Shown: positions 5,188-28,577 of the stretch, piece after piece
Layout: each line of letters opens with the position of its first letter
Position numbering within the stretch: the first letter of the stretch is position 1
From: Escherichia coli
GTDB lineage: Bacteria; Pseudomonadota; Gammaproteobacteria; Enterobacterales; Enterobacteriaceae
Length of the DNA: 64,000 nt
Assembly: GCF_003018255.1 (NCBI RefSeq)
Contig: NZ_CP027440.1
Reading direction: 5' to 3' (one strand)
Notes under the pieces: generated by a model
What the model was told of the DNA's origin: nothing
Databases searched by the model: none
What the model saw: only the letters and a program-made list of their open reading frames with translations
Translations under genes and position numbers: made by a program

Positions 5188-5222
5188 TATAAATGCCGGG
5201 TAAAGATTGTTCTTTATCCGGC

Positions 5223-7766: not shown

Positions 7767-7817
7767 TGGCAAAACTCATTTTTTATTGGTAAAAGCAGTT
7801 TACCTGCTTTTACGTTA

Positions 7818-8285: not shown

Positions 8286-8449
8286 ATCATCCTTACACCT
8301 CATTGGTTAATGAAATGTTGATTTTATGCTTCTTAATTGTGGTTTTCTACTTTAGGAAGGGATAACTAACGGCAAAGGAGTTAAGTATGTAAAATAGCCC
8401 GCAGAAAAATATTCATCTAATCAATAATTCGTTACGGAGAACACGACCG

Positions 8450-9319: not shown

Positions 9320-9401
9320 TGTGAGTTGATTGAAAGGCAAAACTGGAATCCAGTATCCAGGATTACCCTCTCAGAGACTAAAAGCATTGCAGTTTCTCGC
9401 G

Positions 9402-9430
9402 CAGGCGCTGAAAATAGCGCCTGTTTTTAT
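9402..9430 (+). terminator. Rho-independent terminator downstream of pldA
   Basis: Hairpin caggcgct-gaaaata-gcgcctg followed by tttttat. Confidence 0.6.
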
Positions 9431-9450
9431 TTCAGGCAATCGGGGTTAAT

Positions 9451-11280
9451 GTGGCGCAGGCGGAAGTGTTGAATCTGGAGTCCGGAGCTAAACAGGTTTT
9501 ACAAGAAACCTTTGGCTACCAACAGTTTCGCCCCGGCCAGGAAGAGATTATCGACACCGTACTTTCCGGTCGCGATTGCCTGGTCGTCATGCCCACTGGT
9601 GGCGGAAAATCCCTTTGCTATCAAATTCCTGCCTTACTGCTAAACGGTCTTACCGTGGTTGTTTCACCACTGATTTCGTTGATGAAAGATCAGGTGGATC
9701 AGCTACAGGCCAACGGTGTGGCGGCGGCGTGCCTTAACTCGACGCAAACCCGCGAGCAGCAGCTTGAAGTGATGACAGGCTGTCGCACCGGGCAAATTCG
9801 TCTGCTTTATATCGCCCCGGAACGCCTGATGCTGGATAACTTTCTTGAGCATCTGGCGCACTGGAATCCGGTGTTATTAGCCGTTGATGAAGCGCACTGT
9901 ATCTCCCAATGGGGCCACGATTTCCGCCCGGAATATGCCGCGCTCGGTCAGTTGCGCCAGCGGTTCCCGACGCTGCCGTTTATGGCGCTAACCGCCACCG
10001 CCGACGACACCACGCGGCAGGATATCGTGCGCCTGCTGGGGCTGAACGATCCGCTGATTCAAATTAGCAGTTTTGACCGTCCGAATATTCGCTACATGCT
10101 GATGGAGAAATTCAAACCGCTCGATCAGTTGATGCGTTATGTACAGGAACAACGCGGTAAGTCGGGGATTATTTACTGTAATAGTCGTGCGAAAGTAGAA
10201 GACACCGCCGCGCGTCTGCAAAGCAAGGGTATCAGCGCAGCGGCTTATCACGCCGGGCTTGAAAACGATGTCCGTGCGGACGTGCAGGAAAAATTCCAGC
10301 GTGATGACCTGCAAATTGTGGTGGCGACGGTAGCGTTCGGCATGGGCATCAACAAGCCTAACGTCCGCTTCGTGGTTCACTTTGATATTCCACGCAATAT
10401 CGAATCCTATTATCAGGAAACCGGTCGCGCCGGGCGTGATGGCCTGCCCGCGGAAGCGATGCTGTTTTACGATCCGGCTGATATGGCGTGGCTGCGCCGT
10501 TGTCTGGAAGAGAAGCCGCAGGGGCAGTTGCAGGATATCGAGCGCCATAAACTCAATGCGATGGGCGCTTTTGCCGAAGCGCAAACTTGCCGTCGTCTGG
10601 TGCTGCTGAACTACTTTGGCGAAGGGCGGCAGGAGCCGTGCGGGAACTGCGATATCTGCCTCGATCCGCCGAAACAATACGATGGTTCAACCGATGCGCA
10701 GATTGCGCTTTCCACCATTGGTCGTGTGAATCAGCGTTTTGGGATGGGCTATGTAGTGGAAGTGATTCGCGGCGCCAATAACCAGCGAATCCGCGACTAT
10801 GGTCATGACAAACTGAAAGTCTACGGCATGGGCCGCGATAAAAGTCATGAGCACTGGGTGAGCGTAATCCGCCAGTTGATTCATCTCGGTCTGGTGACGC
10901 AAAACATCGCCCAGCATTCGGCATTACAACTGACAGAAGCCGCACGCCCGGTGTTGCGCGGCGAATCCTCTTTACAACTTGCCGTGCCGCGTATTGTGGC
11001 GCTCAAACCGAAAGCAATGCAGAAATCTTTCGGTGGCAATTACGATCGCAAACTGTTCGCCAAATTACGCAAACTGCGTAAATCGATTGCCGATGAAAGT
11101 AATGTCCCGCCGTATGTGGTGTTTAACGATGCGACCTTGATTGAGATGGCGGAACAGATGCCGATCTCCGCCAGCGAAATGCTCAGCGTTAACGGCGTTG
11201 GGATGCGCAAGCTGGAACGCTTTGGCAAACCGTTTATGGCGCTAATTCGTGCGCATGTCGATGGCGATGACGAAGAGTAG
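9451..11280 (+). CDS. recQ: ATP-dependent DNA helicase RecQ
   Basis: 609 aa; GTG start; helicase motifs (PTGGGKS, DEAH), RecQ zinc-binding Cys cluster ([12 protein letters not shown]...CGNCDIC) and HRDC region. Confidence 0.96.
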
Positions 11281-11343
11281 TCAGCAGCATAAAAAAGTGC
11301 CAGGATGAAGACTCCGTAAACGATTTCTCCGCGAGTCAATTGA

Positions 11344-11964
11344 ATGTTGATGTTATTCCTCACCGTTGCCATGGTGCACATTGTGGCGCTTATGAGCCCC
11401 GGTCCCGATTTCTTCTTTGTTTCTCAGACCGCTGTCAGTCGTTCCCGTAAAGAGGCGATGATGGGCGTGCTGGGCATTACCTGCGGCGTAATGGTCTGGG
11501 CAGGGATCGCGTTGCTTGGCCTGCATTTGATTATCGAAAAAATGGCCTGGCTGCATACGCTGATTATGGTGGGCGGTGGCCTGTATCTCTGCTGGATGGG
11601 TTATCAGATGCTGCGTAGCGCACTGAAAAAAGAGGTCGTTTCTGCGCCTGCGCCACAGGTAGAACTGGCAAAAAGCGGGCGCAGTTTCCTGAAAGGCTTA
11701 CTGACCAATCTCGCCAATCCGAAAGCAATTATCTACTTTGGTTCGGTATTCTCGCTGTTTGTCGGCGATAACGTCGGCACCACTGAGCGCTGGGGCATTT
11801 TCGCGTTGATTATTATCGAAACACTGGCATGGTTTACGGTGGTTGCCAGCCTGTTTGCTCTACCGCAAATGCGCCGTGGTTATCAACGTCTGGCGAAGTG
11901 GATTGATGGTTTTGCCGGGGCGTTATTTGCCGGATTTGGCATTCATTTGATTATTTCTCGTTGA
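11344..11964 (+). CDS. rhtC: Threonine efflux protein RhtC (LysE family)
   Basis: 206 aa LysE/RhtB-family membrane protein; K-12 synteny after recQ. Confidence 0.9.
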   Translation: MLMLFLTVAMVHIVALMSPGPDFFFVSQTAVSRSRKEAMMGVLGITCGVMVWAGIALLGLHLIIEKMAWLHTLIMVGGGLYLCWMGYQMLRSALKKEVVSAPAPQVELAKSGRSFLKGLLTNLANPKAIIYFGSVFSLFVGDNVGTTERWGIFALIIIETLAWFTVVASLFALPQMRRGYQRLAKWIDGFAGALFAGFGIHLIISR

Positions 11965-11987
11965 TGCCAAACGCTTCATCAGAGTAA

Positions 11988-12017
11988 GTCGGATAAGGCG
12001 TTTATGCCGCATCCGAC
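11988..12017. repeat. REP (repetitive extragenic palindromic) element between convergent rhtC and rhtB
   Basis: Imperfect palindrome gtcggataaggcgtttatgccgcatccgac typical of enterobacterial REP units. Confidence 0.7.
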
Positions 12018-12025
12018 ATTATTTT

Positions 12026-12646
12026 TCACGCATGCCTCGCCGATGCCAACAACGCTCCTACCAGCATAAACAGCGAGCCAAAAATCTTATTCAATGCCTT
12101 CATCTGTTTCGGCCCTTTTATCCATAACGCAATCCGTTGAGCAAGTGTGGCGTAACCGATCATCACAATAATATCGACCACAATAGTGGTGACGCCGAGC
12201 ACGATATACTGCATCAGTTGTGGCTGCTGCGGCATGATGAATTGCGGAAATAGCGCCGCCAGAAACACAATACTTTTGGGATTGGTGAGATTGACAAAAA
12301 CTGCGCGCTGGAACAAATGTCGACGCGATTGAGTAGAGGCCAGCGGTTTAAGATCAATTGCGCCAGCGGCGCGCCACTGCTGGATCCCAAGCCAAATCAA
12401 GTAAGCTGCGCCTGCCCACTTCAACACTTCAAACGCAATCACTGAGCGGGAAAATAGCGTCCCCAACCCCACGCCAACCAGCACAATATGAATCGCCAGT
12501 CCGGTCTGAAGCCCAGCAATAGACGCCACCGCGCCGCGATAACCGTGGTTGAGCGAGGTGGTCATGGTGTTGATTGCACCAGAGCCTGGCGACAGGCTTA
12601 AAATGATCGATGTCAGCAGGTAGGCAAACCACCATTCTAAGGTCAT
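12026..12646 (-). CDS. rhtB: Homoserine/homoserine lactone efflux protein RhtB (LysE family)
   Basis: 206 aa LysE-family membrane protein; K-12 synteny. Confidence 0.9.
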
Positions 12647-12756
12647 GATGAACTCCCGGTGTGTCTATTTTTGTGCCACAATACGCTACTGTCGAAGCGT
12701 TGTGTCAGGCACGCTTAAAAAAACGATTTTACGTGGTTTAAGAGGCAGATTACCCG

Positions 12757-13779
12757 ATGTTTCAGCAGCAAAAAGACTGGGAAACAAGAGAAAACGCGTT
12801 TGCTGCTTTTACCATGGGACCGCTGACTGATTTCTGGCGTCAGCGTGATGAAGCAGAGTTTACTGGTGTAGATGACATTCCGGTGCGCTTTGTCCGTTTT
12901 CGCGCACAGCACCATGACCGGGTGATAGTCATCTGCCCGGGGCGTATTGAGAGCTACGTAAAATATGCGGAACTGGCCTACGACCTGTTCCATTTGGGGT
13001 TTGATGTCTTAATCATCGACCATCGCGGGCAGGGACGTTCCGGTCGCCTGTTAGCCGATCCGCATCTTGGGCATGTTAATCGCTTTAATGATTATGTCGA
13101 TGACCTGGCGGCATTCTGGCAACAGGAGGTCCAGCCTGGTCCGTGGCGTAAGCGCTATATACTGGCACATTCGATGGGCGGTGCGATCTCCACGTTATTT
13201 CTGCAACGCCATCCAGGTGTATGTGACGCCATTGCGCTAACTGCGCCAATGTTTGGGATCGTGATTCGTATGCCGTCATTTATGGCGCGGCAGATCCTTA
13301 ACTGGGCCGAAGCGCATCCACGTTTCCGTGATGGCTATGCAATAGGCACCGGGCGCTGGCGCGCGTTGCCGTTTGCTATCAACGTACTGACCCACAGCAG
13401 ACAGCGATATCGACGTAACTTACGCTTTTATGCTGATGACCCAACGATTCGCGTCGGTGGGCCGACCTACCATTGGGTACGCGAAAGTATTCTGGCTGGT
13501 GAACAGGTGTTAGCCGGTGCGGGTGATGACGCCACGCCAACGCTTCTCTTGCAGGCTGAAGAGGAACGCGTGGTGGATAACCGCATGCACGACCGTTTTT
13601 GTGAACTCCGCACCGCTGCGGGCCATCCTGTCGAAGGGGGACGACCGCTGGTAATTAAAGGTGCGTACCATGAGATCCTTTTTGAAAAGGACGCAATGCG
13701 CTCAGTCGCGCTCCACGCCATTGTTGATTTTTTCAACAGGCATAACTCACCCAGCGGAAACCGCTCTACAGAGGTTTAA
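12757..13779 (+). CDS. pldB: Lysophospholipase L2
   Basis: 340 aa alpha/beta hydrolase with HSMGG nucleophile elbow; K-12 synteny. Confidence 0.92.
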   Translation: MFQQQKDWETRENAFAAFTMGPLTDFWRQRDEAEFTGVDDIPVRFVRFRAQHHDRVIVICPGRIESYVKYAELAYDLFHLGFDVLIIDHRGQGRSGRLLADPHLGHVNRFNDYVDDLAAFWQQEVQPGPWRKRYILAHSMGGAISTLFLQRHPGVCDAIALTAPMFGIVIRMPSFMARQILNWAEAHPRFRDGYAIGTGRWRALPFAINVLTHSRQRYRRNLRFYADDPTIRVGGPTYHWVRESILAGEQVLAGAGDDATPTLLLQAEEERVVDNRMHDRFCELRTAAGHPVEGGRPLVIKGAYHEILFEKDAMRSVALHAIVDFFNRHNSPSGNRSTEV

Positions 13780-13786
13780 ATTTCTT

Positions 13787-14587
13787 ATGTACCAGGTTGT
13801 TGCGTCTGATTTAGATGGCACGTTACTTTCTCCCGACCATACGTTATCCCCTTACGCCAAAGAAACTCTGAAGCTGCTCACCGCGCGCGGCATTAACTTT
13901 GTGTTTGCGACCGGTCGCCACCACGTTGATGTAGGGCAAATTCGCGATAATCTGGAGATTAAGTCTTACATGATTACCTCCAATGGCGCGCGTGTTCACG
14001 ATCTGGATGGCAATCTGATTTTTGCTCATAACCTGGATCGCGACATTGCCAGCGATCTGTTTGGCGTGGTCAACGACAACCCGGACATCATTACTAACGT
14101 TTATCGCGACGACGAATGGTTTATGAATCGCCACCGCCCGGAAGAGATGCGCTTTTTTAAAGAAGCAGTGTTCAAATATGCGCTGTATGAGCCAGGATTA
14201 CTGGAGCCGGAAGGCGTCAGCAAAGTGTTCTTCACCTGCGATTCTCATGAGCAACTGCTGCCGCTGGAGCAGGCAATCAACGCTCGTTGGGGCGATCGCG
14301 TCAACGTCAGCTTCTCTACCCTAACTTGTCTGGAAGTGATGGCGGGCGGCGTTTCAAAAGGCCATGCCCTGGAAGCGGTGGCGAAGAAACTGGGCTACAG
14401 TCTGAAAGATTGTATTGCCTTTGGTGACGGGATGAACGACGCCGAAATGCTGTCGATGGCAGGTAAAGGCTGCATTATGGGCAGTGCGCACCAGCGTCTG
14501 AAAGATCTGCATCCGGAGCTGGAAGTGATTGGTACTAATGCCGAAGACGCGGTGCCGCATTATCTGCGTAAACTCTATTTATCGTAA
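13787..14587 (+). CDS. yigL: HAD-superfamily (Cof-type) sugar phosphatase YigL
   Basis: Start set at MYQVVASDLDGTLL (HAD motif I DxDGT) at 13787, just after the pldB stop; ORF track start at 13661 is an upstream in-frame extension overlapping pldB. Confidence 0.9.
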   Translation: MYQVVASDLDGTLLSPDHTLSPYAKETLKLLTARGINFVFATGRHHVDVGQIRDNLEIKSYMITSNGARVHDLDGNLIFAHNLDRDIASDLFGVVNDNPDIITNVYRDDEWFMNRHRPEEMRFFKEAVFKYALYEPGLLEPEGVSKVFFTCDSHEQLLPLEQAINARWGDRVNVSFSTLTCLEVMAGGVSKGHALEAVAKKLGYSLKDCIAFGDGMNDAEMLSMAGKGCIMGSAHQRLKDLHPELEVIGTNAEDAVPHYLRKLYLS

Positions 14588-14662
14588 TCGTTCTTTATTT
14601 GGTCAGTTGTCAACCTGATACTTCGCTACAATGGATACTCGTTAATCAAAGAGTTTTCCATT

Positions 14663-15562
14663 GTGGCGCTACTTATCATCACCACGATTCTGTGGGCCTT
14701 CTCCTTTAGCTTTTATGGCGAGTACCTTGCGGGGCACGTCGATAGCTATTTTGCAGTGCTGGTGCGCGTTGGCCTGGCGGCACTCGTGTTTCTGCCGTTT
14801 CTGCGTACCCGTGGCAATAGCCTGAAAACGGTTGGCCTGTATATGCTGGTGGGCGCGATGCAGCTCGGTGTGATGTATATGCTGAGTTTTCGCGCCTATC
14901 TCTACCTGACGGTCTCCGAACTGTTGCTGTTCACCGTACTGACTCCGCTCTACATCACGCTGATTTATGACATCATGAGTAAGCGCCGTCTGCGCTGGGG
15001 CTATGCTTTTAGCGCCTTGTTGGCGGTGATTGGTGCCGGAATTATTCGCTATGATCAGGTCACCGACCACTTCTGGACTGGCCTGCTGCTGGTGCAACTC
15101 TCCAATATCACTTTTGCCATCGGCATGGTGGGTTACAAACGCCTGATGGAAACTCGTCCGATGCCACAGCATAACGCCTTTGCGTGGTTCTATCTTGGTG
15201 CGTTCCTGGTGGCGGTGATTGCATGGTTTTTGCTGGGAAATGCGCAGAAAATGCCGCAAACCACGCTGCAATGGGGCATTCTGGTGTTTCTTGGCGTGGT
15301 GGCTTCCGGTATTGGCTACTTTATGTGGAACTACGGCGCGACTCAGGTGGACGCCGGAACGCTGGGCATTATGAATAATATGCACGTTCCGGCAGGGCTG
15401 TTGGTTAACCTGGCTATCTGGCACCAACAGCCGCACTGGCCAACGTTTATTACAGGCGCGCTGGTGATCCTGGCCTCACTGTGGGTGCATCGTAAGTGGG
15501 TCGCTCCGCGCTCTTCACAAACGGCAGATGATCGCAGGCGTGATTGCGCGCTGAACGAATAA
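14663..15562 (+). CDS. yigM: Inner membrane DMT-family transporter YigM (biotin transporter BioP)
   Basis: 299 aa polytopic membrane protein, GTG start; 3' end overlaps metR convergently. Confidence 0.85.
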
Positions 15563-18950: not shown

Positions 18951-19211
18951 TTATTTATTCTCACGTTGCACGAGATTGTATCCCTTTTCACTAACGTGGT
19001 AGTGAGGCATAGACTTATGCCCGCTATCCTCAATAATAACCAAACCTTCGTTAGCTAATTTGTTAACAATATTAACAATATTACCGAATCCTGGTATTTG
19101 CCTTATGGATAGTGTGCGATCGAGATTCATCCAGTTCCAGTTTATATCTTTCTCAGTCATAACGTTCAGCACGTTAAGTTCATTTTTAGTGATCACGATA
19201 TTCTGTACCAA
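18951..19211 (-). CDS. Candidate immunity protein, paralog 2 (distal copy)
   Basis: 86 aa; clearly paralogous to the 19271..19528 ORF (shared NVL.VM.EKDI.W.WM.LDRTL.IR.IPGFGN..NIV.KL...GLV); AT-rich; downstream of the Hcp-fusion gene. Confidence 0.6.
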   Translation of the reverse strand: MVQNIVITKNELNVLNVMTEKDINWNWMNLDRTLSIRQIPGFGNIVNIVNKLANEGLVIIEDSGHKSMPHYHVSEKGYNLVQRENK

Positions 19212-19270
19212 AATTGATGAGTATCTTATTGAAAGATCACAATGTAAATCATGCTCCTGTAATGGCTGGA

Positions 19271-19528
19271 TCAGAAGAGGTTGTCTTGTTGTTCTTTGAT
19301 AAGATTCAATCCATATTGAGAAACTCTGTAGCGTGGTTTAGAGTTGCCCTCACCATTTACGATATCAACCAACCCATGATTAACCAGCTTTGTTACGATA
19401 TTCGCTACGTTGCCAAATCCTGGAATATTTCGTATAGCTAAAGTACGATCCAGCACCATCCAGCTCCAGTCAATATCTTTCTCAGCCATAACTTTCAGCA
19501 CGTTAAATTCAACTATCGTAATCGTCAT
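19271..19528 (-). CDS. Candidate immunity protein, paralog 1 (proximal copy)
   Basis: 85 aa; start codon overlaps stop of the Hcp-fusion gene by 4 bp (ATGA at 19525-19528), i.e. translationally coupled; paralog of the 18951..19211 ORF. Confidence 0.65.
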   Translation of the reverse strand: MTITIVEFNVLKVMAEKDIDWSWMVLDRTLAIRNIPGFGNVANIVTKLVNHGLVDIVNGEGNSKPRYRVSQYGLNLIKEQQDNLF

Positions 19529-20658
19529 TTTTTTGCATCCGGATGAAATAAGTCAGTATCTTTAATTTTAAAGTCTTCTAGAGTTGCAGTATGTACATTA
19601 TTCCATAATTCATATCCATCTAAACCTTTCGGTTCACCTGTTTCCCATCCTAAATTACAATAACGCTGATACTCGCGACATTCATGAGTATAGTAGTTCA
19701 GATCGTATTTTTCAGGAAGCAATTCTTTATTTGCTATTTTCTTTAGCCTTGAAATCATTACATCATTAGCTGGATCATGATCAAATCTGGAGATATGCTT
19801 TTCAACAATAGCGATACCTTCCCTGTTGATTGTTACGCCATCTATCGTCAGGTTTTCAATTGGACCACCGGCAAGGTCGGGATTAAATGGTCTTCCTGAT
19901 ACTGCTCCTCTGGCTCCGAAATGCTCAAGTGATTCCAAATCAGGGAATCTCATTCTTCCCAGAACAACTCCAGCAACTATTGAAGCACCAGCGATGAGTA
20001 ACCCTTTGTTATCCATAACTTGATCGTAACCAGCAGGTGCATCTCCTCCCAACTTGTTTGCTGTTTCCCTGAATCCTTCGATATTCCCATTGTATATGCC
20101 GCCAGCAGCAAGCAGTCTGCCAACCGCTTTACTATTGAGTGTTTTGAGGCCATTATCATCTTTAGTTTTTGGCCGTGGTATAAACAGACGGTTGTAGTTA
20201 TCGGGAAATGCCAAATAACTAAATTCAGTATTAGCAATCAGATGCCTGGAGAGTATATATTCATAACTGGCAGTGATGGTTTCTGTATCCAGATTGTTCT
20301 CAGTAAACAGGTGATTGATTGCTGATAAGAGCGCGCCGCGGAGTTGAATGTTGTAATATTTCTCCCATCGACCAAATCTATTGATCCGATAGAAGTCAAA
20401 CTCCATGAACAACTGCTCGTTATTGTTAATAGCGTTAATAAGTAACGGGGAGCTTTTGTCAATCAACTTACAGAAACTAAGGCCATGTAATTGTGACCCT
20501 TTGCCTGTATTCGTAATACTATTAGATAGCGAGAACGCGAAGATTTCATCTTCATGGCCAATCTGCCAGCGATTACCTATTGATGCGCTCGTTCCGCAAC
20601 GAGAGGAAATACATCCTTGTTGTTCTCCGGTTATGGTCAGGTAAATAATATCACTCAT
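19525..20658 (-). CDS. Hcp (T6SS tube protein) domain fused to C-terminal extension of unknown function: candidate Hcp-ET type effector
   Basis: 377 aa; first ~165 aa resemble enterobacterial Hcp from memory (YLTITGEQQGCISSRCGTSASIGNRWQIGHEDEIFAF...KLIDKSSPLLINAI...EFDFYRI); ~210 aa C-terminal extension with GxxxG-rich hydrophobic segment and His/Glu/Tyr-rich tail (YYTHECREYQRY); AT-rich. Confidence 0.75.
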   Translation of the reverse strand: MSDIIYLTITGEQQGCISSRCGTSASIGNRWQIGHEDEIFAFSLSNSITNTGKGSQLHGLSFCKLIDKSSPLLINAINNNEQLFMEFDFYRINRFGRWEKYYNIQLRGALLSAINHLFTENNLDTETITASYEYILSRHLIANTEFSYLAFPDNYNRLFIPRPKTKDDNGLKTLNSKAVGRLLAAGGIYNGNIEGFRETANKLGGDAPAGYDQVMDNKGLLIAGASIVAGVVLGRMRFPDLESLEHFGARGAVSGRPFNPDLAGGPIENLTIDGVTINREGIAIVEKHISRFDHDPANDVMISRLKKIANKELLPEKYDLNYYTHECREYQRYCNLGWETGEPKGLDGYELWNNVHTATLEDFKIKDTDLFHPDAKK

Positions 20659-22123: not shown

Positions 22124-22888
22124 ATGTCCAAGTCTGATGTTTTTCATCTCGGCCTCACTAAAAACGATTTACAAGGGGCTACGCTTGCCATCGTCCCTGG
22201 CGACCCGGATCGTGTGGAAAAGATCGCCGCGCTGATGGATAAGCCGGTTAAGCTGGCATCTCACCGCGAATTCACCACCTGGCGTGCAGAGCTGGATGGT
22301 AAACCTGTTATCGTCTGCTCTACCGGTATCGGCGGCCCGTCTACCTCTATTGCTGTTGAAGAGCTGGCACAGCTGGGCATTCGCACCTTCCTGCGTATCG
22401 GTACAACGGGCGCTATTCAGCCGCATATTAATGTGGGTGATGTCCTGGTTACCACGGCGTCTGTTCGTCTGGACGGCGCGAGCCTGCACTTCGCACCGCT
22501 GGAATTCCCGGCTGTCGCTGATTTCGAATGTACGACTGCGCTGGTTGAAGCGGCGAAGTCAATTGGTGCCACCACTCACGTTGGTGTGACGGCTTCTTCT
22601 GATACCTTCTACCCGGGTCAGGAACGTTACGATACTTACTCTGGTCGCGTAGTTCGTCACTTTAAAGGTTCTATGGAAGAGTGGCAGGCGATGGGCGTAA
22701 TGAACTATGAAATGGAATCTGCAACCCTGCTGACCATGTGTGCAAGTCAGGGCCTGCGTGCCGGTATGGTAGCGGGGGTTATCGTTAACCGCACCCAGCA
22801 AGAGATCCCGAATGCTGAGACGATGAAACAAACCGAGAGCCATGCGGTGAAAATCGTGGTGGAAGCGGCGCGTCGTCTGCTGAAATAA
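22124..22888 (+). CDS. udp: Uridine phosphorylase
   Basis: Start at [11 protein letters not shown] (253 aa); PNP/UDP phosphorylase family motifs; K-12 synteny. Confidence 0.95.
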
Positions 22889-22914
22889 AAAACGCTCCCC
22901 AACTTCGGGGAGCG
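22886..22914. terminator. Bidirectional rho-independent terminator between udp and the convergent tctA-like gene
   Basis: Hairpin cgctcccc-aacttc-ggggagcg; A-run on + strand 5' side gives a T-run on the minus strand. Confidence 0.6.
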
Positions 22915-22921
22915 ATATCAG

Positions 22922-24412
22922 TTACTGACGCCGTAAACGCATTATTTTGCGGATTATTGGCGTCAGTAGCGTAAAGGCTGCCAGAGTTAGCAATGCCAGA
23001 GTGATCGGTCGGGTATACAGAAAGTCCAGTGAACCCCCTGAAAGCGACAGCGCACGGCGAAAATTACTTTCTGCCATCGGGCCCATAATCAATGCCAGCA
23101 CTACGGGTGATGCCGGATATCCTCCTTTCTGCATGAAATAGCCCACCACGCCTGCAATCAGCATAATGCCAACATCAAACAGGCTATTGTTCAACGCATA
23201 AGTCCCGACCACACAAAGTGCGAGGATCATCGGTGTGAGAATATTGCCGGGGATCTTCACCACGTTACCGATGACTTTCAAAGAGAGCAGTCCAAGAACT
23301 AGCAGCATGAAGTAACAAAAGATCATGCCGACAAACAGTGTATAAACCATATCGCCGTGGTCGGTAAACATCAGCGGGCCTGGTTGCATTCCCTGTAACG
23401 TTAACGCGCCCAGCATGATGGCGGTTACCGCATCGCCAGGGATCCCCAGCGTCAGCATAGGTAACAATGCGCCACCGGTGCAGCCATTCGCGCCTGCCTC
23501 ACAGGAGGCCACAGCTTTAATTTCACCCTTACCAAAGTTTTCTGGTGTCTTACTGAAACGACGAGTTTCGTTATAGGCAACAAAAGCTGCAATATCCGCC
23601 CCCGCACCGGGGATCATGCCGATAAAAACCCCTAATCCTGATGAGCGCAAAATGGTTAATGCAATGCGGCGTAGTGTTTGCCAGGGCAGTAACAGACTGC
23701 CGATAGCCACCTTCGCCCCCTGACGAATTTGCTGGTTTTGCTCCATAGAGCGGAATGCTTCTGAAGCAGCAAATAAACCAATCATCACCGGGATAAATGG
23801 CACATTCATCAGCTCCACAAATCCACCTGTAAACCGTGGAAAACCGCCCATTGGATCAAGGCCTATCGTTGCGATCAGCAATCCGCCAACCCCGGCAATC
23901 AGCCCTTTAATCAGCGACTCACCGGAAATACTGGCAATAATACTCAGTCCGAAGGTTGCCAGGGCGAAGGACTCCGAGGCACTAAATTTCAGCGCCCAAC
24001 TGGCAAGTACCGGAGAGAGAAACATCAGCACGATAATGCTGAGCGTTCCGCCACTAAAGGAAGAGAACGTGGCGGCACTCAATGCCAGCCCTGCTTTTCC
24101 CTGTTTCGTCAGCTCATAACCATCAATAGCGGTGGCTGCGGCGGCAGGCGTTCCGGGAATTTTGAGCAAAATTGCGGTGATAGAACCACCGTAGACGCCA
24201 CCAAAAAAGACGCCGCAAATCATCAACAAGCCAGAAACAGGCTCCATGCCGTAGGTGAAAGGCAGCAAAATCGCCACACCCATGGTCGCTGTCAGACCAG
24301 GCAAAGCGCCAATCACAATACCCAGCATCACCCCAAAAGTGGCAAACAGCAGCGCCTGAGGATTATTGAGTAATGTCGAAAAACCCTGAGTTAAAAGTTC
24401 ACTTTCAAACAT
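22922..24412 (-). CDS. Tripartite tricarboxylate transporter large permease, TctA family
   Basis: 496 aa polytopic membrane protein with internal duplication typical of TctA; follows tctB/tctC-like genes. Confidence 0.8.
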   Translation of the reverse strand: MFESELLTQGFSTLLNNPQALLFATFGVMLGIVIGALPGLTATMGVAILLPFTYGMEPVSGLLMICGVFFGGVYGGSITAILLKIPGTPAAAATAIDGYELTKQGKAGLALSAATFSSFSGGTLSIIVLMFLSPVLASWALKFSASESFALATFGLSIIASISGESLIKGLIAGVGGLLIATIGLDPMGGFPRFTGGFVELMNVPFIPVMIGLFAASEAFRSMEQNQQIRQGAKVAIGSLLLPWQTLRRIALTILRSSGLGVFIGMIPGAGADIAAFVAYNETRRFSKTPENFGKGEIKAVASCEAGANGCTGGALLPMLTLGIPGDAVTAIMLGALTLQGMQPGPLMFTDHGDMVYTLFVGMIFCYFMLLVLGLLSLKVIGNVVKIPGNILTPMILALCVVGTYALNNSLFDVGIMLIAGVVGYFMQKGGYPASPVVLALIMGPMAESNFRRALSLSGGSLDFLYTRPITLALLTLAAFTLLTPIIRKIMRLRRQ

Positions 24413-24424
24413 TGCTGGCCCCTG

Positions 24425-24934
24425 TTATTCGAAAAATGTGCCGACAGGCAATGGCACCTGTAACGCTTCGACAAACAGCAACCAGAGGATTGCCGTTAAC
24501 AGCAGCGCAATACCCGGTGTGAGTACCCATCGCCTGTAGCCCATCAACGTCATAATGACGATGAGGAAAACAGGAGTAGTAATGAGATAACCGCAGTAGC
24601 TCATCGCCACAATATAAAACGCGGTTGCCGCAATTCCTGTTGCTGTTTTCCTGAATGCCGGTTTTTCCTGTGCGTTGGCGCAAGAGGCTGGTTTTGCCTG
24701 CAAAAGATCGCGTATCACCAGCAAGACAGCGAGCACAATCAGGGCACAGGCATAGAAGGTAGGGAAGGCACTTGCACCGGGATCCGTTTCAATGGCAGTT
24801 GCTGGAAAATCAGCGGCATTAATCATCACCGCGCCAGCAACCACACAAAGTAACAGCGCCACCACCATCGTTGATGAAAGGCGCTTGCGGTGCGGTACGG
24901 CGAGTTGAGCAACAGACTGTTTTGTGTTCATCAA
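24425..24934 (-). CDS. Tripartite tricarboxylate transporter small subunit, TctB family
   Basis: 169 aa with about four hydrophobic helices, located between TctC-like and TctA-like genes. Confidence 0.7.
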   Translation of the reverse strand: MMNTKQSVAQLAVPHRKRLSSTMVVALLLCVVAGAVMINAADFPATAIETDPGASAFPTFYACALIVLAVLLVIRDLLQAKPASCANAQEKPAFRKTATGIAATAFYIVAMSYCGYLITTPVFLIVIMTLMGYRRWVLTPGIALLLTAILWLLFVEALQVPLPVGTFFE

Positions 24935-24947
24935 CCGTACCTCAGGT

Positions 24948-25922
24948 TTATTTTTTCAGGCCCAGGCGAGTCAGCAACTCGTCAAAGTACTTTTCCTGTT
25001 CGCTGATTTGGGTCTGGAAGCTGGCAGCGTCAAGCCATGCATAGTTGAGATTCAACTTTTGCAGTGCATCCTGGAATGCAGGCTCTTCAGCCGTCTCTTT
25101 TGCTGCCTTTGCCAGAACATCCACCACATCCTGCGGCGTTTTTTGCGACACAATCAGGCCGCGCCAGGTGCCGATGGAGAGATCAACGCCTTTCTCTTTT
25201 AACGTCGGGACGTCAGGCATGGTTTTCATTCGCTCATCCGCCATCACTACCAGTGTCTTCAGCTTGCCGCCATTCACATGGTTGATAACTTCTCCTGGGC
25301 TTACGGAAACCGCTTCAATATGCCCGCCTAACAGGCCTGTAATGGCAGGGGCTGCGCCGTCATACGGGACATGAGAAAACTTTGTGCCCGTTTTGTCTTC
25401 CAGTGCAGCTGCCGCCAGATGCCAGATAGCTCCGGTGCCTGAGTTACCAATGCGTACTTTTCCGGGATTCGCTTTGGAGTAAGCCATAAATTCTTCATAG
25501 CTATTCCACGGCGCATCGGCACGGACTGTGATAGCAGCCGGATCCGCATTCAGACGGGCAATGGGTTTAAAGTCGCTGGTTTTAAAACGCACCATTCCGA
25601 GGCTGGGAAGGGTGGTCAGTTCAACCGTGCCTAAACCAATTTTGTAACCGTTAGGGCGGGCAGCGGCGATTTCACTCAGGCCGATAGCACCGCCTCCGCC
25701 AGGTTTATTGATAACCCCGATGCTGACGGGTAAATGGTTTTTGGCGGCATCAGCAAAGGCACGGGCAACCAGATCCGTACCGCCTCCGGCAGCGTAGGGA
25801 ACGACTAACTCGATCTGTTTGGTTGGGTAGGAGGCAGCCTGTACAGGCGCAATGCTGAGGGCAGCGCCTGCAAGAAGTACCATTGCAGCCATTTTTTTCG
25901 GTAAGGTAAGATGTTTTATCAT
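24948..25922 (-). CDS. Tripartite tricarboxylate transporter periplasmic substrate-binding protein, TctC/Bug family
   Basis: 324 aa with signal peptide; Bug-family signature near N-terminus (YPTKQIELVVPYAAGGGTDLVAR). Confidence 0.8.
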   Translation of the reverse strand: MIKHLTLPKKMAAMVLLAGAALSIAPVQAASYPTKQIELVVPYAAGGGTDLVARAFADAAKNHLPVSIGVINKPGGGGAIGLSEIAAARPNGYKIGLGTVELTTLPSLGMVRFKTSDFKPIARLNADPAAITVRADAPWNSYEEFMAYSKANPGKVRIGNSGTGAIWHLAAAALEDKTGTKFSHVPYDGAAPAITGLLGGHIEAVSVSPGEVINHVNGGKLKTLVVMADERMKTMPDVPTLKEKGVDLSIGTWRGLIVSQKTPQDVVDVLAKAAKETAEEPAFQDALQKLNLNYAWLDAASFQTQISEQEKYFDELLTRLGLKK

Positions 25923-25946
25923 TGCTTTTATATCCTTATTTATCAG

Positions 25947-26576
25947 TTAGTTGCTATTTAAATTGTTCCATGCGTTCATAAACAGTACTGCATTTTCATA
26001 GACTTGCTCTGGCGTCATGCCGGGGCGATATAGCGCAGAACCGAGGCCAAAGCCGTTTGCGCCGTGGCTCAGATAACGCGCCATGGTTTCCGGTGTGATA
26101 CCGCCAACCGGTAACATCGGAACGGATTGTGGAATAACCGCACGCCAGGCTTTGGTAACTTCTGGCGTAATTTGTTCAGCCGGGAACAGCTTGATGGCAT
26201 TAGCACCATGTTCAATGGCAGCAAAGGCTTCGGTGGGCGTGGCGACGCCAGGCGCACAATACATACCCAGCGCACGGGCGCGACGGATCACCGCAGTATC
26301 GCAATGCGGCATCACGATAATCTGGCCCCCAGCCTCTTTAACCGCAACCACCTGCTCTACCGAAAGCACAGTTCCGGCTCCGACCAGGCAGTCCTTAGGC
26401 AGGGCGTCGCGCAGTAAACTGATACTTTGCAACGCCTCCGGCGAGTTCATAGGAATCTCAATCAGGCGGAATCCGGCGGCGTACAGTTTTTCACCGATGG
26501 CGACAATCTCATCCGGTTTCACGCCGCGTAAAATGGCGACTAACCCGGTTTTTTGCAAAAGTGTATTAAATGGCAT
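25947..26576 (-). CDS. 2-dehydro-3-deoxy-6-phosphogalactonate / KDPG aldolase family protein (DgoA-like)
   Basis: Aligns by eye with E. coli DgoA (LVAILRGVKPDE...IEIPMNSP...GAGTVL...GGITPE); start chosen at MPFNTLLQ (209 aa); ORF track start at 26651 is an upstream extension. Confidence 0.8.
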   Translation of the reverse strand: MPFNTLLQKTGLVAILRGVKPDEIVAIGEKLYAAGFRLIEIPMNSPEALQSISLLRDALPKDCLVGAGTVLSVEQVVAVKEAGGQIIVMPHCDTAVIRRARALGMYCAPGVATPTEAFAAIEHGANAIKLFPAEQITPEVTKAWRAVIPQSVPMLPVGGITPETMARYLSHGANGFGLGSALYRPGMTPEQVYENAVLFMNAWNNLNSN

Positions 26577-27570
26577 GGGTACATTCCCTGGCGTTGGTGG
26601 ACAGTAACCCGGCAGCGTGGGCGATTCGCCATAATCCATGTTCAGTGGCATTAGGAATGGCGTGTATCTGTCTGTCGGGAAAAACGTGGCTGAATGCTTG
26701 TGAATAGCGGCTGTTCAGATTTGCGCTACCGATTAAGGCGATCGGTGTTGTGGCGGGTAAATCACGTAGCAAACTGGATGCCAGACCACATAATTCATGG
26801 CCTATCAGTAATCCGGAAAGGTAATCCCCCTGCGAGGACGACGTAAGATTACTGGTCAGCAGGCGCGAACGGGTCGAAAACAGCGTCGATAATAATCCGG
26901 TCTGATGATGCTCTTGTGCTGCTGTCAGCCCGTGGGTGAAGGCATCCCAGTGCGGTTCATCTCCAGGATGCATGGTGGCACCGAGAATCGAATGGCGGGA
27001 TAAAACATCAAATAACTCGCCCGTCATAAAGGTTCGGAAATCGGTAATGGTGTTGTTTTCAACTACTGCCCATTTCGCATGTGTGCCGGGTAAGCCTATC
27101 AGCACTGGCATACCCTGATGGATCGCGTTTTGCAGGGCCGGTTCCATCGAGATAGCACCGAAGATTTGTGTCTCTTCGCCACGCATCACTTCGGGCATTT
27201 CACCTTCTTTAATCACGCCAGGAATGATGTGCAGCATTGTCTGCTGCTGGTGGATAACAGGCGTCAACTGCTTCGCCAGACCCTCGAGAGTGACCGGGCA
27301 AGGTAAATAAGCTGCTGATTGCCACCCTTGCGCACTGCCGAGCATGCCGCAAGCCAGTACCGGGCATGGGGTTTGTGCCAGCCAGTCGCCGCAGACACGT
27401 AAAAACGTATCGTGGAAAGCGTCCTCACGTGTTGCTGCCTGGGAGGGTAATTTCATGATCCCCCAGGGGAATTCACGTTTTTCTTGTGGATTTGGTGATT
27501 CGCCAAAACGCCATGCCCGAAGCGATGACGTTCCCCAGTCCAGGGCAATAAATGAGGGTGCTCCCGGCAT
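26566..27570 (-). CDS. 2-dehydro-3-deoxygalactonokinase family protein (DgoK-like)
   Basis: 334 aa; N-terminal IALDWGTSSLRAW and internal VMRGEETQIFG and PGTHAKW motifs resemble DgoK as recalled; 3' end overlaps aldolase start by 11 nt. Confidence 0.8.
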   Translation of the reverse strand: MPGAPSFIALDWGTSSLRAWRFGESPNPQEKREFPWGIMKLPSQAATREDAFHDTFLRVCGDWLAQTPCPVLACGMLGSAQGWQSAAYLPCPVTLEGLAKQLTPVIHQQQTMLHIIPGVIKEGEMPEVMRGEETQIFGAISMEPALQNAIHQGMPVLIGLPGTHAKWAVVENNTITDFRTFMTGELFDVLSRHSILGATMHPGDEPHWDAFTHGLTAAQEHHQTGLLSTLFSTRSRLLTSNLTSSSQGDYLSGLLIGHELCGLASSLLRDLPATTPIALIGSANLNSRYSQAFSHVFPDRQIHAIPNATEHGLWRIAHAAGLLSTNARECTHAI

Positions 27571-27593
27571 TAGTCGTTTCCTTTAATCATGGT

Positions 27594-28361
27594 TTATTTA
27601 TCTTTGCGGACGTGCTTACCCCAGCCCAGTTCAGCGGATATCTCTTCTGCACAGGATTTGACGTAAGGTGCCAGTTCTTCCAGACGCGCCAGCGACATAT
27701 ACGTGGTGGTACTGGCGACAGAAATAGCCGCCACAATTTCATCCCGGGCGTTGTAAACCGGCGCTGCAACGCAACGGATAGTCGGCTCGTTCTCTTCCAG
27801 ATCAAAAGCAAAACCACTGGCGGCATAACGACGCATGTTCTGAATAAATGCGCCCAGTTTTGTTTCATCACCACAGGTCTTAAACAGCGTGCGCCACTCT
27901 TCTTCTGTTCGGTTGAGGATCAATGCCTTGCCGATGCCGGTGATTGCCAGTGGCATGCGATGGCCTGGGCGTGAGCGCATTTCCAGCCCGCGCTGACTGT
28001 TGATCTTCTCCAGATACAGCACTTCGTCGCCTTCAACGATCCCCAGATGCACGGTGTCCAGGGTGTAACGGGCAAGGCGTTGCAAAACGGGCTGGGCAAT
28101 TTCGTACAGTGAGGTGCTTTCCAGTGCTCTGGCACCGAATTCGATCAGTTTGGCACCCAGTTGGTAGCCCTGCGTTGGGACATGGCGCAGGTAGCGTTGT
28201 TCCACCAGAACGGTGACTAAACGATGGGTTGTGCTCCGGGTCGTGCCGGTGAACTCGCCGATACTTTTTAGGTCATGGCAGCCGTTATAAACAGCATTAA
28301 GAACCGCCAGTCCACGTAATAACGTTTGTGCGCCTGCGGTGGTTGAAGAGGTTTCTGCCAT
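27594..28361 (-). CDS. IclR-family transcriptional regulator
   Basis: Start chosen at MAETSSTTAG (ATG 28361, RBS-like aggag upstream) giving about 255 aa; N-terminal wHTH plus C-terminal IclR effector-binding domain; 23 bp upstream of the kinase gene. Confidence 0.8.
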   Translation of the reverse strand: MAETSSTTAGAQTLLRGLAVLNAVYNGCHDLKSIGEFTGTTRSTTHRLVTVLVEQRYLRHVPTQGYQLGAKLIEFGARALESTSLYEIAQPVLQRLARYTLDTVHLGIVEGDEVLYLEKINSQRGLEMRSRPGHRMPLAITGIGKALILNRTEEEWRTLFKTCGDETKLGAFIQNMRRYAASGFAFDLEENEPTIRCVAAPVYNARDEIVAAISVASTTTYMSLARLEELAPYVKSCAEEISAELGWGKHVRKDK

Positions 28362-28421
28362 ACGTTTCTCCTGATGATATTGCTGAAGTGTTCCACATAA
28401 TGACGTGGGGAAAAGGTGATA

Positions 28422-28459
28422 TATCCCACAATATAAACTCCATCTCATATTGTGGGATA
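28422..28459. promoter_or_regulatory. Perfect 13-bp inverted repeat, candidate operator
   Basis: tatcccacaatat (28422-28434) and atattgtgggata (28447-28459) separated by 12 bp, located upstream of the IclR-family regulator gene and of rmuC. Confidence 0.5.
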
Positions 28460-28577
28460 AAATAATGAAAATTAACGATCGTTTTGCGTAGCGCCTCGCA
28501 GGAAATGCCTTTCCAACTGGACGTTTGTACAGCACAATTCTATTTTGTGCGGGTAAGTTGTTGCGTCAGGAGGCGTT

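What the first reader, a model, noticed from the sequence alone, without database searches (positions are those of the whole stretch)
22922..28361. Six-gene accessory operon between udp and rmuC: IclR regulator, DgoK-like kinase, DgoA-like aldolase and TctCBA transporter, no dehydratase
udp and rmuC are adjacent in K-12 as I recall, but here about 5.5 kb carrying a co-oriented minus-strand operon separates them. The kinase and aldolase resemble the galactonate-pathway DgoK and DgoA, yet no DgoD-type dehydratase or MFS DgoT is present and uptake is by a tripartite tricarboxylate transporter, a family K-12 lacks. This suggests direct uptake of a 2-keto-3-deoxy sugar acid, phosphorylation, then cleavage to pyruvate plus glyceraldehyde-3-phosphate. 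The regulator is IclR-type like KdgR rather than GntR-type like DgoR.
Basis: partly seen in the sequence, partly recalled or inferred. Interest (0 to 1): 0.6.

Follow-up and report, generated by a model that had tools for sequence, protein, structure and literature searches.

The report
Accessory keto-deoxy sugar-acid uptake operon
About a quarter of E. coli strains carry a six-gene operon between udp and rmuC (regulator, kinase, aldolase, three-part transporter) that most likely lets them import and burn a ready-made 2-keto-3-deoxy sugar acid; it is already annotated but has never been tested, and its substrate is still open.

Summary
A tightly packed minus-strand operon, iclR-DGOK kinase-DgoA-type aldolase-tctC-tctB-tctA, lies at 22922-28361. 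It sits inside 5.6 kb of island-specific DNA (22883-28481) that replaces about 45 bp between udp and rmuC.

- **Distribution:** 1,452 of 5,426 complete E. coli genomes carry it. It co-exists with the core dgoRKADT operon.
- **Family calls:** all six hold up on profile search. The aldolase has the KDPGal-type catalytic and stereochemical residues.
- **No dehydratase:** none lies in the window or near about 26 orthologous modules from alpha-, beta- and gammaproteobacteria.
- **New findings:** the six genes are a widely conserved cassette with congruent kinase and aldolase trees. A conserved palindromic operator lies upstream of iclR. Firmicute versions pair the same binding protein with a KdgK/Eda-type kinase and aldolase. 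Most non-enteric versions add an SDR 55-72% identical to a DEH (alginate monomer) reductase, and often a lactonase-like gene. E. coli has neither.

**Best reading (0.45):** direct uptake of D-2-keto-3-deoxygalactonate, then phosphorylation and aldol cleavage.

**Rivals:** D-galactonate uptake relying on core DgoD, which has been published as a prediction for a similar cluster, or KDG/DEH-type substrates.

The locus has been noted in the literature and annotated, but is uncharacterised. Interest is moderate.

The parts
22883..28481 (.). Island-specific DNA (5,599 bp). It replaces about 45 bp, including the udp stop codon and terminator, of the empty K-12-type site.
   Evidence: Comparison of the window junctions with the empty site in L002. 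No flanking repeats. GC 52% and GC3 similar to the flanking core genes.
22893..22914 (-). Intrinsic terminator of the operon: 9-bp stem with 7 G-C pairs, followed by a T-run.
   Evidence: It lies 8 nt after the tctA stop codon.
22922..24412 (-). tctA: large permease subunit of a tripartite tricarboxylate transporter (496 aa).
   Evidence: Pfam TctA PF01970, 1.2e-151, full length. RefSeq annotation.
24425..24931 (-). tctB: small membrane subunit (168 aa).
   Evidence: Pfam TctB PF07331, 1.9e-21. RefSeq start codon.
24948..25922 (-). tctC: periplasmic substrate-binding protein (324 aa). It has a signal peptide ending ...APVQA|AS.
   Evidence: Pfam TctC PF03401, 4.2e-55. Closest solved structures are 4X9T (apo, ligand unknown, 4e-100) and 25HK (binds unsaturated alginate oligosaccharides, 7e-64).
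25947..26576 (-). DgoA-type class I aldolase (209 aa), with the KDPGal-aldolase signature.
   Evidence: NF006600 scores 321.6 bits against a cut-off of 207; the eda model scores below its cut-off. 46% identical to K-12 DgoA. Glu37, Lys126, Ala11, Ile12 and Val154 equivalents are conserved (residue roles from PMC4915726).
26566..27570 (-). DGOK-family sugar-acid kinase (334 aa).
   Evidence: Pfam DGOK PF05035, 5.3e-89, full length. 35% identical to K-12 DgoK, with the DWG(T/S), MRGEETQ and PGTH.KW motifs aligned. PDB hits 3R1X and 3T69.
27594..28361 (-). IclR-family transcriptional regulator (255 aa) and first gene of the operon.
   Evidence: Pfam HTH_IclR plus IclR_C. All named NCBIfam equivalog models score below their cut-offs.
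28422..28459 (.). Candidate operator: a perfect 13-nt inverted repeat with a 12-nt spacer, made of two boxes of the type TCCCACAATAT, 62-98 nt upstream of the iclR ATG.
   Evidence: I16. The box C[CT]CAC[TA]AT.TG[GA][GA] recurs at the same position upstream of iclR in about 17 orthologous modules.

Best explanation
The six genes form one autoregulated operon. It is a self-contained salvage pathway for an exogenous six-carbon 2-keto-3-deoxy sugar acid, most likely D-2-keto-3-deoxygalactonate (D-KDGal).

**Proposed steps**
1. The periplasmic TctC-like protein captures the acid.
2. TctB and TctA carry it across the inner membrane.
3. The DGOK-family kinase phosphorylates C6.
4. The DgoA-type class I aldolase splits the product into pyruvate and D-glyceraldehyde-3-phosphate.
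5. The IclR-type protein binds the palindromic operator upstream of its own gene and releases it when the sugar acid, or its phosphate, is present.

**Shown here:** gene content, family membership, operon layout, catalytic and stereochemical residues, the conserved operator motif, and the absence of a dehydratase.

**Inferred:** the ligand, the direction of regulation, and the physiological source of the substrate.

The enteric version is a reduced form of a wider cassette that usually also encodes a reductase.
For: **Family and residue evidence**
- All six family assignments are confirmed.
- The aldolase keeps the Schiff-base Lys, the catalytic Glu and the three KDPGal-type stereochemistry residues (PMC4915726).

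**No dehydratase**
- No DgoD-like or Edd/IlvD-like ORF lies in the 64-kb window or in the roughly 20 kb held for each of 44 loci, L092 and L093. The one exception is a distant Vibrio locus whose binding protein is only 42% identical.
- The Pfam tables of nine loci show none either.

**The cassette behaves as one unit**
- The gene order IclR-DGOK-aldolase-TctCBA is conserved in alpha-, beta- and gammaproteobacteria at 57-84% binding-protein identity.
- Kinase and aldolase trees are congruent and sit beside canonical DgoK and DgoA.

**Kinase type and aldolase stereo-type co-vary**
- DGOK kinases pair with Val154-type aldolases. PfkB kinases pair with Thr161-type aldolases in the clearest Firmicute versions (L006, L019, L046, L034, L027), although at least one PfkB locus (L040) has a Val-type aldolase. 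All of these also lack a dehydratase.
- The layout matches B. subtilis kdgRKAT (regulator, kinase, aldolase, KDG permease). That comparison is from my own knowledge.

**Regulation and physiology**
- The operator box is conserved upstream of iclR.
- Per a review (PMC11219438), external 2-keto-3-deoxyhexonates do not induce their own uptake in E. coli. A dedicated transporter with its own regulator would therefore add a capability.
Against: - No natural extracellular source of free D-KDGal is established.
- In 17 of 26 orthologous modules an SDR 55-72% identical to a proven DEH reductase is adjacent, and 11 also carry an SMP-30 lactonase-like gene. This suggests the ancestral cassette starts from a different imported compound.
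- A published reconstruction predicted D-galactonate for a similar cluster (PMC5507952).
- Every island-bearing E. coli genome also has core dgoD, so dependence on DgoD cannot be excluded.
- No ligand, kinetic or expression data exist for any member.
Confidence: 0.45

Rival explanations
1. **D-galactonate uptake.** The TTT system imports D-galactonate with high affinity. An unlinked dehydratase, core DgoD in E. coli, makes D-KDGal, and the island kinase and aldolase then process it. In the longer non-enteric modules the SDR and the SMP-30 protein would be galactose 1-dehydrogenase and galactonolactonase, the upper De Ley-Doudoroff steps. Enterics would have dropped them.
For: - Leyn et al. 2017 predicted this for an IclR ('GalR')-dgoK-TTT cluster in Salinivirga, and named COG3386 lactonases 'DgoL' (PMC5507952).
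- It explains why an SDR and a lactonase pair accompany a KDPGal-type kinase and aldolase.
- The nearest curated SDR families are sugar 1-dehydrogenases.
- None of the roughly 1,452 island-bearing E. coli genomes lacks dgoD. The closest genome has both loci.
Against: - The committed enzyme, the dehydratase, is never linked in about 26 modules from three proteobacterial classes, although the kinase and aldolase always are.
- The only TTT locus with DgoD-like genes has a distant binding protein (42% identity) and canonical-type DgoK and DgoA.
- The SDR is 55-72% identical to three enzymes shown to reduce DEH, not to any known galactose dehydrogenase (PMC13390454).
- The link with dgoD in E. coli is confounded. 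The O157:H7 clone has dgoRKADT deleted and also lacks the island.
Confidence: 0.25
2. **KDG or unsaturated-uronate (DEH/DKI) scavenging.** The cassette takes up monomers released by alginate or pectin degraders. In the long versions the SDR reduces the 4-deoxy-5-hexosulose uronate to 2-keto-3-deoxygluconate. The DGOK-family kinase and DgoA-family aldolase then act on KDG and KDPG despite their family names. E. coli, which lacks the reductase, would import KDG itself.
For: - The module-linked SDRs are 55-72% identical to Sphingomonas A1-R and A1-R'. One that is 72% identical is divergently transcribed from a full module.
- A Vibrio alginate locus combines a TTT system, an A1-R'-like reductase shown to be active, a kinase and an aldolase (PMC13390454).
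- That Vibrio binding protein (25HK) is the second-closest solved relative of the E. coli TctC. Six of its seven essential binding residues are identical and the seventh is a Phe-to-Tyr change.
- Firmicute orthologous modules use a KdgK-like kinase and an Eda-type aldolase.
Against: - All DGOK modules have the KDPGal-type (4R) aldolase signature, whereas DEH reduction gives the 4S product (stereochemistry reasoned from established structures).
- No DGOK-family KDG kinase is known.
- K-12 DgoK and DgoA group beside the module clades.
- E. coli already has KdgT, KdgK and Eda for KDG (my own knowledge), and has no A1-R-like SDR in the window.
Confidence: 0.2
3. **Decaying remnant.** The operon is a non-functional leftover of an ancestral cassette, kept in some lineages only by drift.
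For: - It has lost the SDR and lactonase genes present in most relatives.
- It is absent from 73% of complete genomes.
Against: - All six ORFs are intact, with conserved catalytic residues.
- The operator palindrome is perfect.
- Identity across phylogenetically distant E. coli strains is 98.8-99.8%, with all-or-none presence.
- Phytobacter keeps the same six genes at the same site.
Confidence: 0.05

Closest known systems
E. coli dgoRKADT (D-galactonate / De Ley-Doudoroff lower pathway)
   Same: Both have a DGOK-family kinase directly followed by, and overlapping, a DgoA-type aldolase. The aldolase shares the Lys/Glu catalytic pair and the Ala11/Ile12/Val154 stereochemistry residues. The predicted end products are pyruvate and G3P.
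   Different: - No DgoD dehydratase.
- A TTT transporter in place of the MFS DgoT.
- An IclR regulator in place of the GntR-type DgoR.
- Only 35% (kinase) and 46% (aldolase) identity.
- It co-exists with the canonical operon in the same genomes.
Bacillus subtilis kdgRKAT and E. coli KdgT/KdgK/Eda (direct uptake and catabolism of 2-keto-3-deoxygluconate)
   Same: The logic is the same: regulator, kinase, aldolase and a transporter for the preformed keto-deoxy acid, with no dehydratase in the unit. Firmicute orthologues of the island's binding protein sit next to exactly this kinase and aldolase type.
   Different: - Non-homologous kinase (PfkB versus DGOK).
- Opposite aldolase stereo-type.
- A single-component permease versus a binding-protein-dependent TTT system.
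- A LacI-type versus an IclR-type regulator.

The comparison with kdgRKAT rests on my own knowledge and was not tested here.
Vibrio sp. C42 alginate-locus TTT (TTT-C, PDB 25HK; AEM 2026, PMC13390454)
   Same: It is a TTT system dedicated to a sugar acid and encoded with a reductase, a kinase and an aldolase. TTT-C is the second-closest solved relative of the island's TctC (7e-64), and most of its essential binding residues are shared.
   Different: - TTT-C binds unsaturated oligosaccharides.
- Its locus has lyases, KdgF, a PfkB-type KdgK and Eda, and GntR regulators.
- The E. coli operon has no lyase and no reductase.
Salinivirga fredricksonii HL-109 'GalR'-dgoK-TTT cluster (Leyn et al. 2017, prediction only)
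   Same: It combines an IclR-family regulator, dgoK and a TTT transporter.
   Different: It was predicted, without experiment, to take up D-galactonate. I did not retrieve its sequence, so orthology with the island is not tested.
Polaromonas TctC, PDB 4X9T (Bpro_3516)
   Same: It is the closest solved structure (3.8e-100, about 60% identical over residues 29-323) and is probably an orthologue of the binding protein.
   Different: The structure is apo and the ligand is unknown (PMC5812351), so it gives no substrate information.

Membership tests
DGOK (2-keto-3-deoxygalactonokinase, PF05035) | Full-length match to the family profile | tested here: met
   PF05035, 5.3e-89, model positions 1-281 of 281
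DGOK (2-keto-3-deoxygalactonokinase, PF05035) | Conserved sequence blocks shared with the characterised E. coli DgoK (DWG[ST], MRGEETQ, PGTH.KW) | tested here: met
   BLASTP alignment with K-12 DgoK, 35% identity, blocks aligned
DGOK (2-keto-3-deoxygalactonokinase, PF05035) | ATP-dependent phosphorylation of D-KDGal, with preference over KDG | not testable with these tools
   Needs enzyme assays
KDPGal aldolase (DgoA, NCBIfam NF006600) | Score above the curated cut-off, and better than the KDPG-aldolase (Eda) models | tested here: met
   NF006600 scores 321.6 bits against a cut-off of 207. TIGR01182 (eda) scores 135.3, below its cut-off of 156.
KDPGal aldolase (DgoA, NCBIfam NF006600) | Schiff-base Lys126 and catalytic Glu37 | tested here: met
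   Both are conserved in the alignment with K-12 DgoA and Eda
KDPGal aldolase (DgoA, NCBIfam NF006600) | Stereochemistry residues Ala11, Ile12 and Val154 (Eda has Pro19, Val20 and Thr161) | tested here: met
   The island has L-V-A-I-L ... P-V-G-G. Residue roles are from PMC4915726.
KDPGal aldolase (DgoA, NCBIfam NF006600) | Cleavage of KDPGal (4R) in preference to KDPG | not testable with these tools
   Needs enzyme assays
Tripartite tricarboxylate transporter (TTT, TctCBA) | Three adjacent genes matching the TctC, TctB and TctA profiles | tested here: met
   PF03401 4.2e-55, PF07331 1.9e-21, PF01970 1.2e-151
Tripartite tricarboxylate transporter (TTT, TctCBA) | Secreted binding protein with an N-terminal signal peptide | tested here: met
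   Read from the sequence: a hydrophobic N-terminus ending AxA (…APVQA|AS). No predictor was run.
Tripartite tricarboxylate transporter (TTT, TctCBA) | Citrate or tricarboxylate as substrate, and TctDE two-component control, as in the founding Salmonella system | tested here: not met
   No two-component genes are adjacent; the regulator is IclR-type. The substrate is untested, and the context points to a sugar acid.
Canonical dgo (D-galactonate) operon | DgoD dehydratase in the cluster | tested here: not met
   No DgoD or Edd/IlvD homologue in the window or in the orthologous modules
Canonical dgo (D-galactonate) operon | GntR-type DgoR and MFS DgoT | tested here: not met
   The regulator is IclR-type and the transporter is TTT
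IclR family regulators | An N-terminal HTH_IclR domain plus a C-terminal IclR effector domain | tested here: met
   PF09339 9e-08 and PF01614 7.2e-38
KdgR (NF011671 equivalog) | Score above the curated cut-off | tested here: not met
   129.7 bits against a cut-off of 275. The resemblance is at family level only.
DEH (alginate monomer) reductive pathway | An A1-R-type DEH reductase encoded with the transporter, kinase and aldolase | tested here: not met
   None in the 64-kb window. It is present in 17 of 26 orthologous modules elsewhere.

The most novel reading that the evidence does not exclude
The cassette is a cross-feeding pathway for polysaccharide-lyase products, in which a DEH-type reductase feeds a DGOK-family kinase and a DgoA-family aldolase. 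That would mean one of two things:
- These two 'galactonate' families include unrecognised KDG- and KDPG-specific members, so many genome annotations are wrong.
- A galacto-configured (D-threo) 4-deoxy-hexosulose uronate or free D-KDGal is a real, so far unrecognised, exchanged metabolite in gut and rhizosphere communities. In that case E. coli's version would be the first TTT transporter for a keto-deoxy sugar acid.
Probability: 0.2. Interest if true: 0.65.

Novelty: new variant of a known kind. Interest (0 to 1): 0.42.

Why it matters
**What would be new.** If direct uptake of a keto-deoxy sugar acid is right, this would be the first characterised TTT transporter in E. coli and the first TTT system for a 2-keto-3-deoxy sugar acid.

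**Strain biology.** It would be a strain-variable nutritional trait present in about 27% of complete genomes, including E. coli B, ATCC 25922 and, according to the literature, B2 ExPEC strains. It could bear on gut or urinary niche partitioning.

**An open question made testable.** A 2024 review notes that E. coli consumes exogenous KDGal only when another substrate induces transport, and that the route is unknown (PMC11219438).

**Ready-made experiments.** The conserved operator and the cassette's wide distribution give direct handles for EMSA, binding screens and complementation of K-12.

**If the galactonate rival is right,** the locus is an ordinary second uptake system for a known substrate.

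Tried and rejected
**Searches that found nothing or little**
- NCBIfam gave no hit for the kinase or for TctA, TctB or TctC, so I used Pfam instead.
- Literature searches for a direct characterisation found only three things: a 2012 mention of an 'islet of 6 ORFs of unknown function', a 2010 table lumping it with neighbouring genes as 'Entner-Doudoroff pathway', and a 2017 prediction for a similar cluster.
- An exact look-up of the A1-R' gene context failed. The closest A1-R homologue that has a contig (83% identity) is not next to a module, so I could not show that A1-R itself belongs to such a cassette.
- The sigma-70 scan found no promoter on the operon strand upstream of iclR, so I assign no promoter.

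**Methods I had to redo**
- My first crude gene caller lost genes in high-GC loci. I redid it with homology and codon-position weighting. A few kinase ORFs were still miscalled and were recovered from the all-ORF searches.

**Readings considered and rejected**
- *Mobile-element insertion.* No integrase, IS, tRNA or flanking repeats at the junctions, and no compositional anomaly. Phytobacter has the module at the same udp-side site. Old residence with lineage-specific loss is therefore at least as likely as recent gain.
- *Island-dgoD co-occurrence as evidence of dependence.* The observed overlap is complete, but it is confounded by the O157:H7 clone, which lacks both loci.
- *L-KDGal or pectin-derived DKI as substrate.* Reducing DKI gives the 4S,5S acid, whose cleavage would give L-glyceraldehyde-3-phosphate, and 4S does not fit a 4R-type aldolase. 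This is reasoning from established stereochemistry, not a test.

Full report
**1.

- tctA 22922-24412
- tctB 24425-24931
- tctC 24948-25922
- an aldolase 25947-26576
- a kinase 26566-27570
- an IclR-type regulator 27594-28361

Intergenic gaps are 12-24 nt, and the aldolase start overlaps the kinase stop by 11 nt. A strong terminator (22914-22893) follows tctA. This is therefore one transcription unit with the regulator as its first gene.

udp ends at 22888 and rmuC starts at 28578. In K-12-type genomes the two genes are 140 bp apart. Aligning the two alleles puts island-specific DNA at 22883-28481. The left junction falls in the udp stop codon, so Udp gains a C-terminal Lys, and the island supplies a new terminator.

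Nothing marks the junctions as a mobile element. There are no flanking direct or inverted repeats, no integrase and no IS. GC and GC3 match the flanking core genes.

**2. Distribution**

Of 5,426 complete E. coli genomes, 1,452 carry the whole island at 98.8-99.8% identity. The rest show only the flanks, so presence is all-or-none. Carriers include an E. coli B derivative and ATCC 25922.

RefSeq already annotates all six genes. Two papers mention the locus:
- A 2010 synteny survey lumps CFT073 genes c4760-c4780 as 'Entner-Doudoroff pathway' (PMC2831201).

I found no experimental characterisation.

Phytobacter massiliensis has the same six genes next to udp and ysgA, with ubiE on the other side. 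The cassette may therefore be old at this site and lost in many E. coli lineages, rather than recently gained.

**3. What the proteins are**

*Kinase.* It is a full-length DGOK-family protein (PF05035, 5e-89). It is 35% identical to K-12 DgoK, with the family's conserved blocks aligned.

*Aldolase.* It passes NCBI's KDPGal-aldolase model (321.6 bits against a cut-off of 207) and fails the Eda models. It is 46% identical to K-12 DgoA. It keeps the Schiff-base lysine, the catalytic glutamate and the three positions shown experimentally to set 4R versus 4S stereochemistry: Ala11, Ile12 and Val154 in DgoA, against Pro19, Val20 and Thr161 in Eda (PMC4915726).

*Transporter.* TctA, TctB and TctC match their Pfam families.

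*Regulator.* It has HTH_IclR and IclR_C domains but reaches no named equivalog. KdgR scores 129.7 bits against a cut-off of 275.

*Dehydratase.* No DgoD-like or Edd/IlvD-like ORF exists anywhere in the 64-kb window.

*Core operon.* The closest genome also has an intact core dgoRKADT operon about 155 kb away. The island genes are therefore a second, divergent kinase and aldolase pair.

**4. The cassette elsewhere**

Orthologues of the binding protein (57-84% identity) occur in Enterobacteriaceae, Rhodoferax, Azospirillum, Uliginosibacterium, Skermanella, Acetobacteraceae, Photobacterium, Pasteurellaceae and others.

- *Gene order.* In about 26 loci the order IclR-DGOK-aldolase-TctC-TctB-TctA is conserved or nearly so.
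- *No dehydratase.* None has a dehydratase in the roughly 20 kb held. The only TTT locus with DgoD-like genes is a Vibrio sonorensis locus whose binding protein is 42% identical and whose kinase and aldolase are of the canonical type.
- *Co-evolution.* Neighbour-joining trees of kinase and aldolase are congruent. The enteric modules form one subclade, and K-12 DgoK and DgoA sit beside the module clades. The genes have evolved as a unit within the Dgo families.
- *Operator.* A box C[CT]CAC[TA]AT.TG[GA][GA] lies just upstream of iclR in about 17 of these loci. It is scattered at chance level elsewhere in 3.2 Mb scanned. E. coli has two inverted copies forming a perfect 13-nt palindrome with a 12-nt spacer at 28422-28459. 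This is a phylogenetic footprint of the regulator's operator.

**5. Two further patterns**

*Kinase type and aldolase type co-vary.* Every proteobacterial module with a DGOK kinase has a Val154-type aldolase. In Firmicute loci the clearest cases with a PfkB kinase (L006, L019, L046, L034, L027) have a Thr161-type aldolase, though the match is not perfect there: L040 pairs a PfkB kinase with a Val-type aldolase. In Brevibacillus, whose binding protein is 66-67% identical to E. coli's, the kinase resembles KDG/KDGal kinases and the aldolase passes the Eda model. This binding-protein clade is thus repeatedly wired to 'phosphorylate a 2-keto-3-deoxyhexonate and cleave it' with no dehydratase. That is the layout of B. 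subtilis kdgRKAT (from my own knowledge).

*Extra genes in non-enteric modules.* In 17 of 26 modules an SDR 55-72% identical to Sphingomonas A1-R and A1-R' is adjacent. Those enzymes reduce the alginate monomer DEH to KDG. Eleven modules also carry an SMP-30/gluconolactonase-like gene. On the A. brasilense Sp7 megaplasmid the eight genes form one array. The enteric modules (E. coli, Phytobacter, Brenneria, K. oxytoca) lack both genes, and K. oxytoca instead has an extra DGOK paralogue and an Fe-alcohol dehydrogenase.

*Solved relatives of the binding protein.* The closest, 4X9T, is apo with an unknown ligand. The second, 25HK, binds unsaturated alginate oligosaccharides. Six of its seven essential binding residues are identical in the E. 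coli protein, and the seventh is a Phe-to-Tyr change. I read this from the alignment against the residue list.

**6. Interpretation**

*The intermediate.* The kinase family, the aldolase family and its stereochemical residues, and the co-variation above all point to D-KDGal 6-phosphate. The products would be pyruvate and D-glyceraldehyde-3-phosphate. I put this at about 0.75-0.8.

*What is imported.* This is less certain.
It matches the KDG precedent. It would also add a real capability, since external keto-deoxy-hexonates do not induce their own uptake in E. coli (PMC11219438). I rate it 0.45.
- D-galactonate uptake relying on an unlinked dehydratase was predicted for a similar cluster (PMC5507952). 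It would explain the SDR and lactonase pair as the upper De Ley-Doudoroff steps. Against it, the dehydratase is always missing, and the SDR resembles proven DEH reductases, not galactose dehydrogenases. I rate it 0.25.
- A KDG or DEH-type substrate fits the SDR and the 25HK relationship. It conflicts with the 4R-type aldolase, because DEH reduction gives the 4S acid. I rate it 0.2.

*Co-occurrence with dgoD.* No island-bearing E. coli genome lacks dgoD. The union of tctA-positive and dgoD-positive genomes equals the dgoD-positive set, 5,020. This is weak evidence, because the O157:H7 clone has dgoRKADT deleted and also lacks the island.

*Unresolved.* No single reading explains the reductase, the lactonase-like gene, the 4R aldolase and the missing dehydratase together. 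I record this as unexplained.

**7. Verdict**

The finding is real and the annotation-level interpretation is correct. The locus is already annotated and has been noted in the literature, but it has no experimental characterisation.

It is best filed as a variant of the Dgo/Kdg sugar-acid operons: the lower pathway only, with a TTT transporter and an IclR regulator. It is not a new kind of system.

Interest is moderate. It is strain-variable in an important species, would be the first TTT system in E. coli, has a plausible unrecognised substrate, and can be tested directly with binding screens and complementation of K-12.

Noticed in passing
window 18951-20658 (-): A tssD/Hcp gene with a long C-terminal extension (377 aa) and two small ORFs lie between metE and ysgA, in a low-GC stretch (35-43%). 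This looks like an orphan type VI Hcp-effector islet. The same intergenic site holds the 16-kb tkt1 island in APEC O1 (PMC3349570).
   Followed up: no
window 22880-22888: The island's left junction lies in the udp stop codon. Udp ends ...LLK in island-bearing strains and ...LL in K-12-type strains, and the native udp terminator is replaced by the hairpin that terminates tctA.
   Followed up: partly
L093 (A. brasilense Sp7 plasmid p2) 6377-13932; also L004, L011-L014, L016, L017, L021-L024, L026, L041, L092: Most non-enteric versions of the cassette carry an SDR 55-72% identical to the DEH reductase A1-R, and often an SMP-30/gluconolactonase-like gene. In Sp7 the lactonase-like gene's start overlaps the tctA stop. 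Their role next to a KDPGal-type aldolase with no dehydratase is unexplained.
   Followed up: partly
L003 (Klebsiella oxytoca) 5079-7258 and 13239-14003: This module is flanked by a second, very divergent DGOK paralogue plus an Fe-dependent alcohol dehydrogenase (divergently transcribed), and by a second IclR regulator downstream.
   Followed up: no
L020 (Phytobacter massiliensis) 6546-14881: The same six genes sit at the same udp/ysgA-adjacent site as in E. coli. ubiE lies directly on the other side, and no RmuC homologue was found in the locus.
   Followed up: partly
L095 (E. coli O157:H7 NE122) 22777-23023: The whole dgoRKADT operon is deleted between yidX and cbrA, leaving a 114-nt pseudogene remnant. 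This clone also lacks the udp-rmuC island.
   Followed up: partly
window about 5223-6565 (-): A DUF943-family gene and a YPO3983-family gene are annotated as a pair between corA and rarD in the closest genome. I did not check whether K-12 has them.
   Followed up: no
window 24607-24618: A third copy of the operator half-site (CCACAATATAAA) lies inside the tctB coding sequence. It is probably chance.
   Followed up: no
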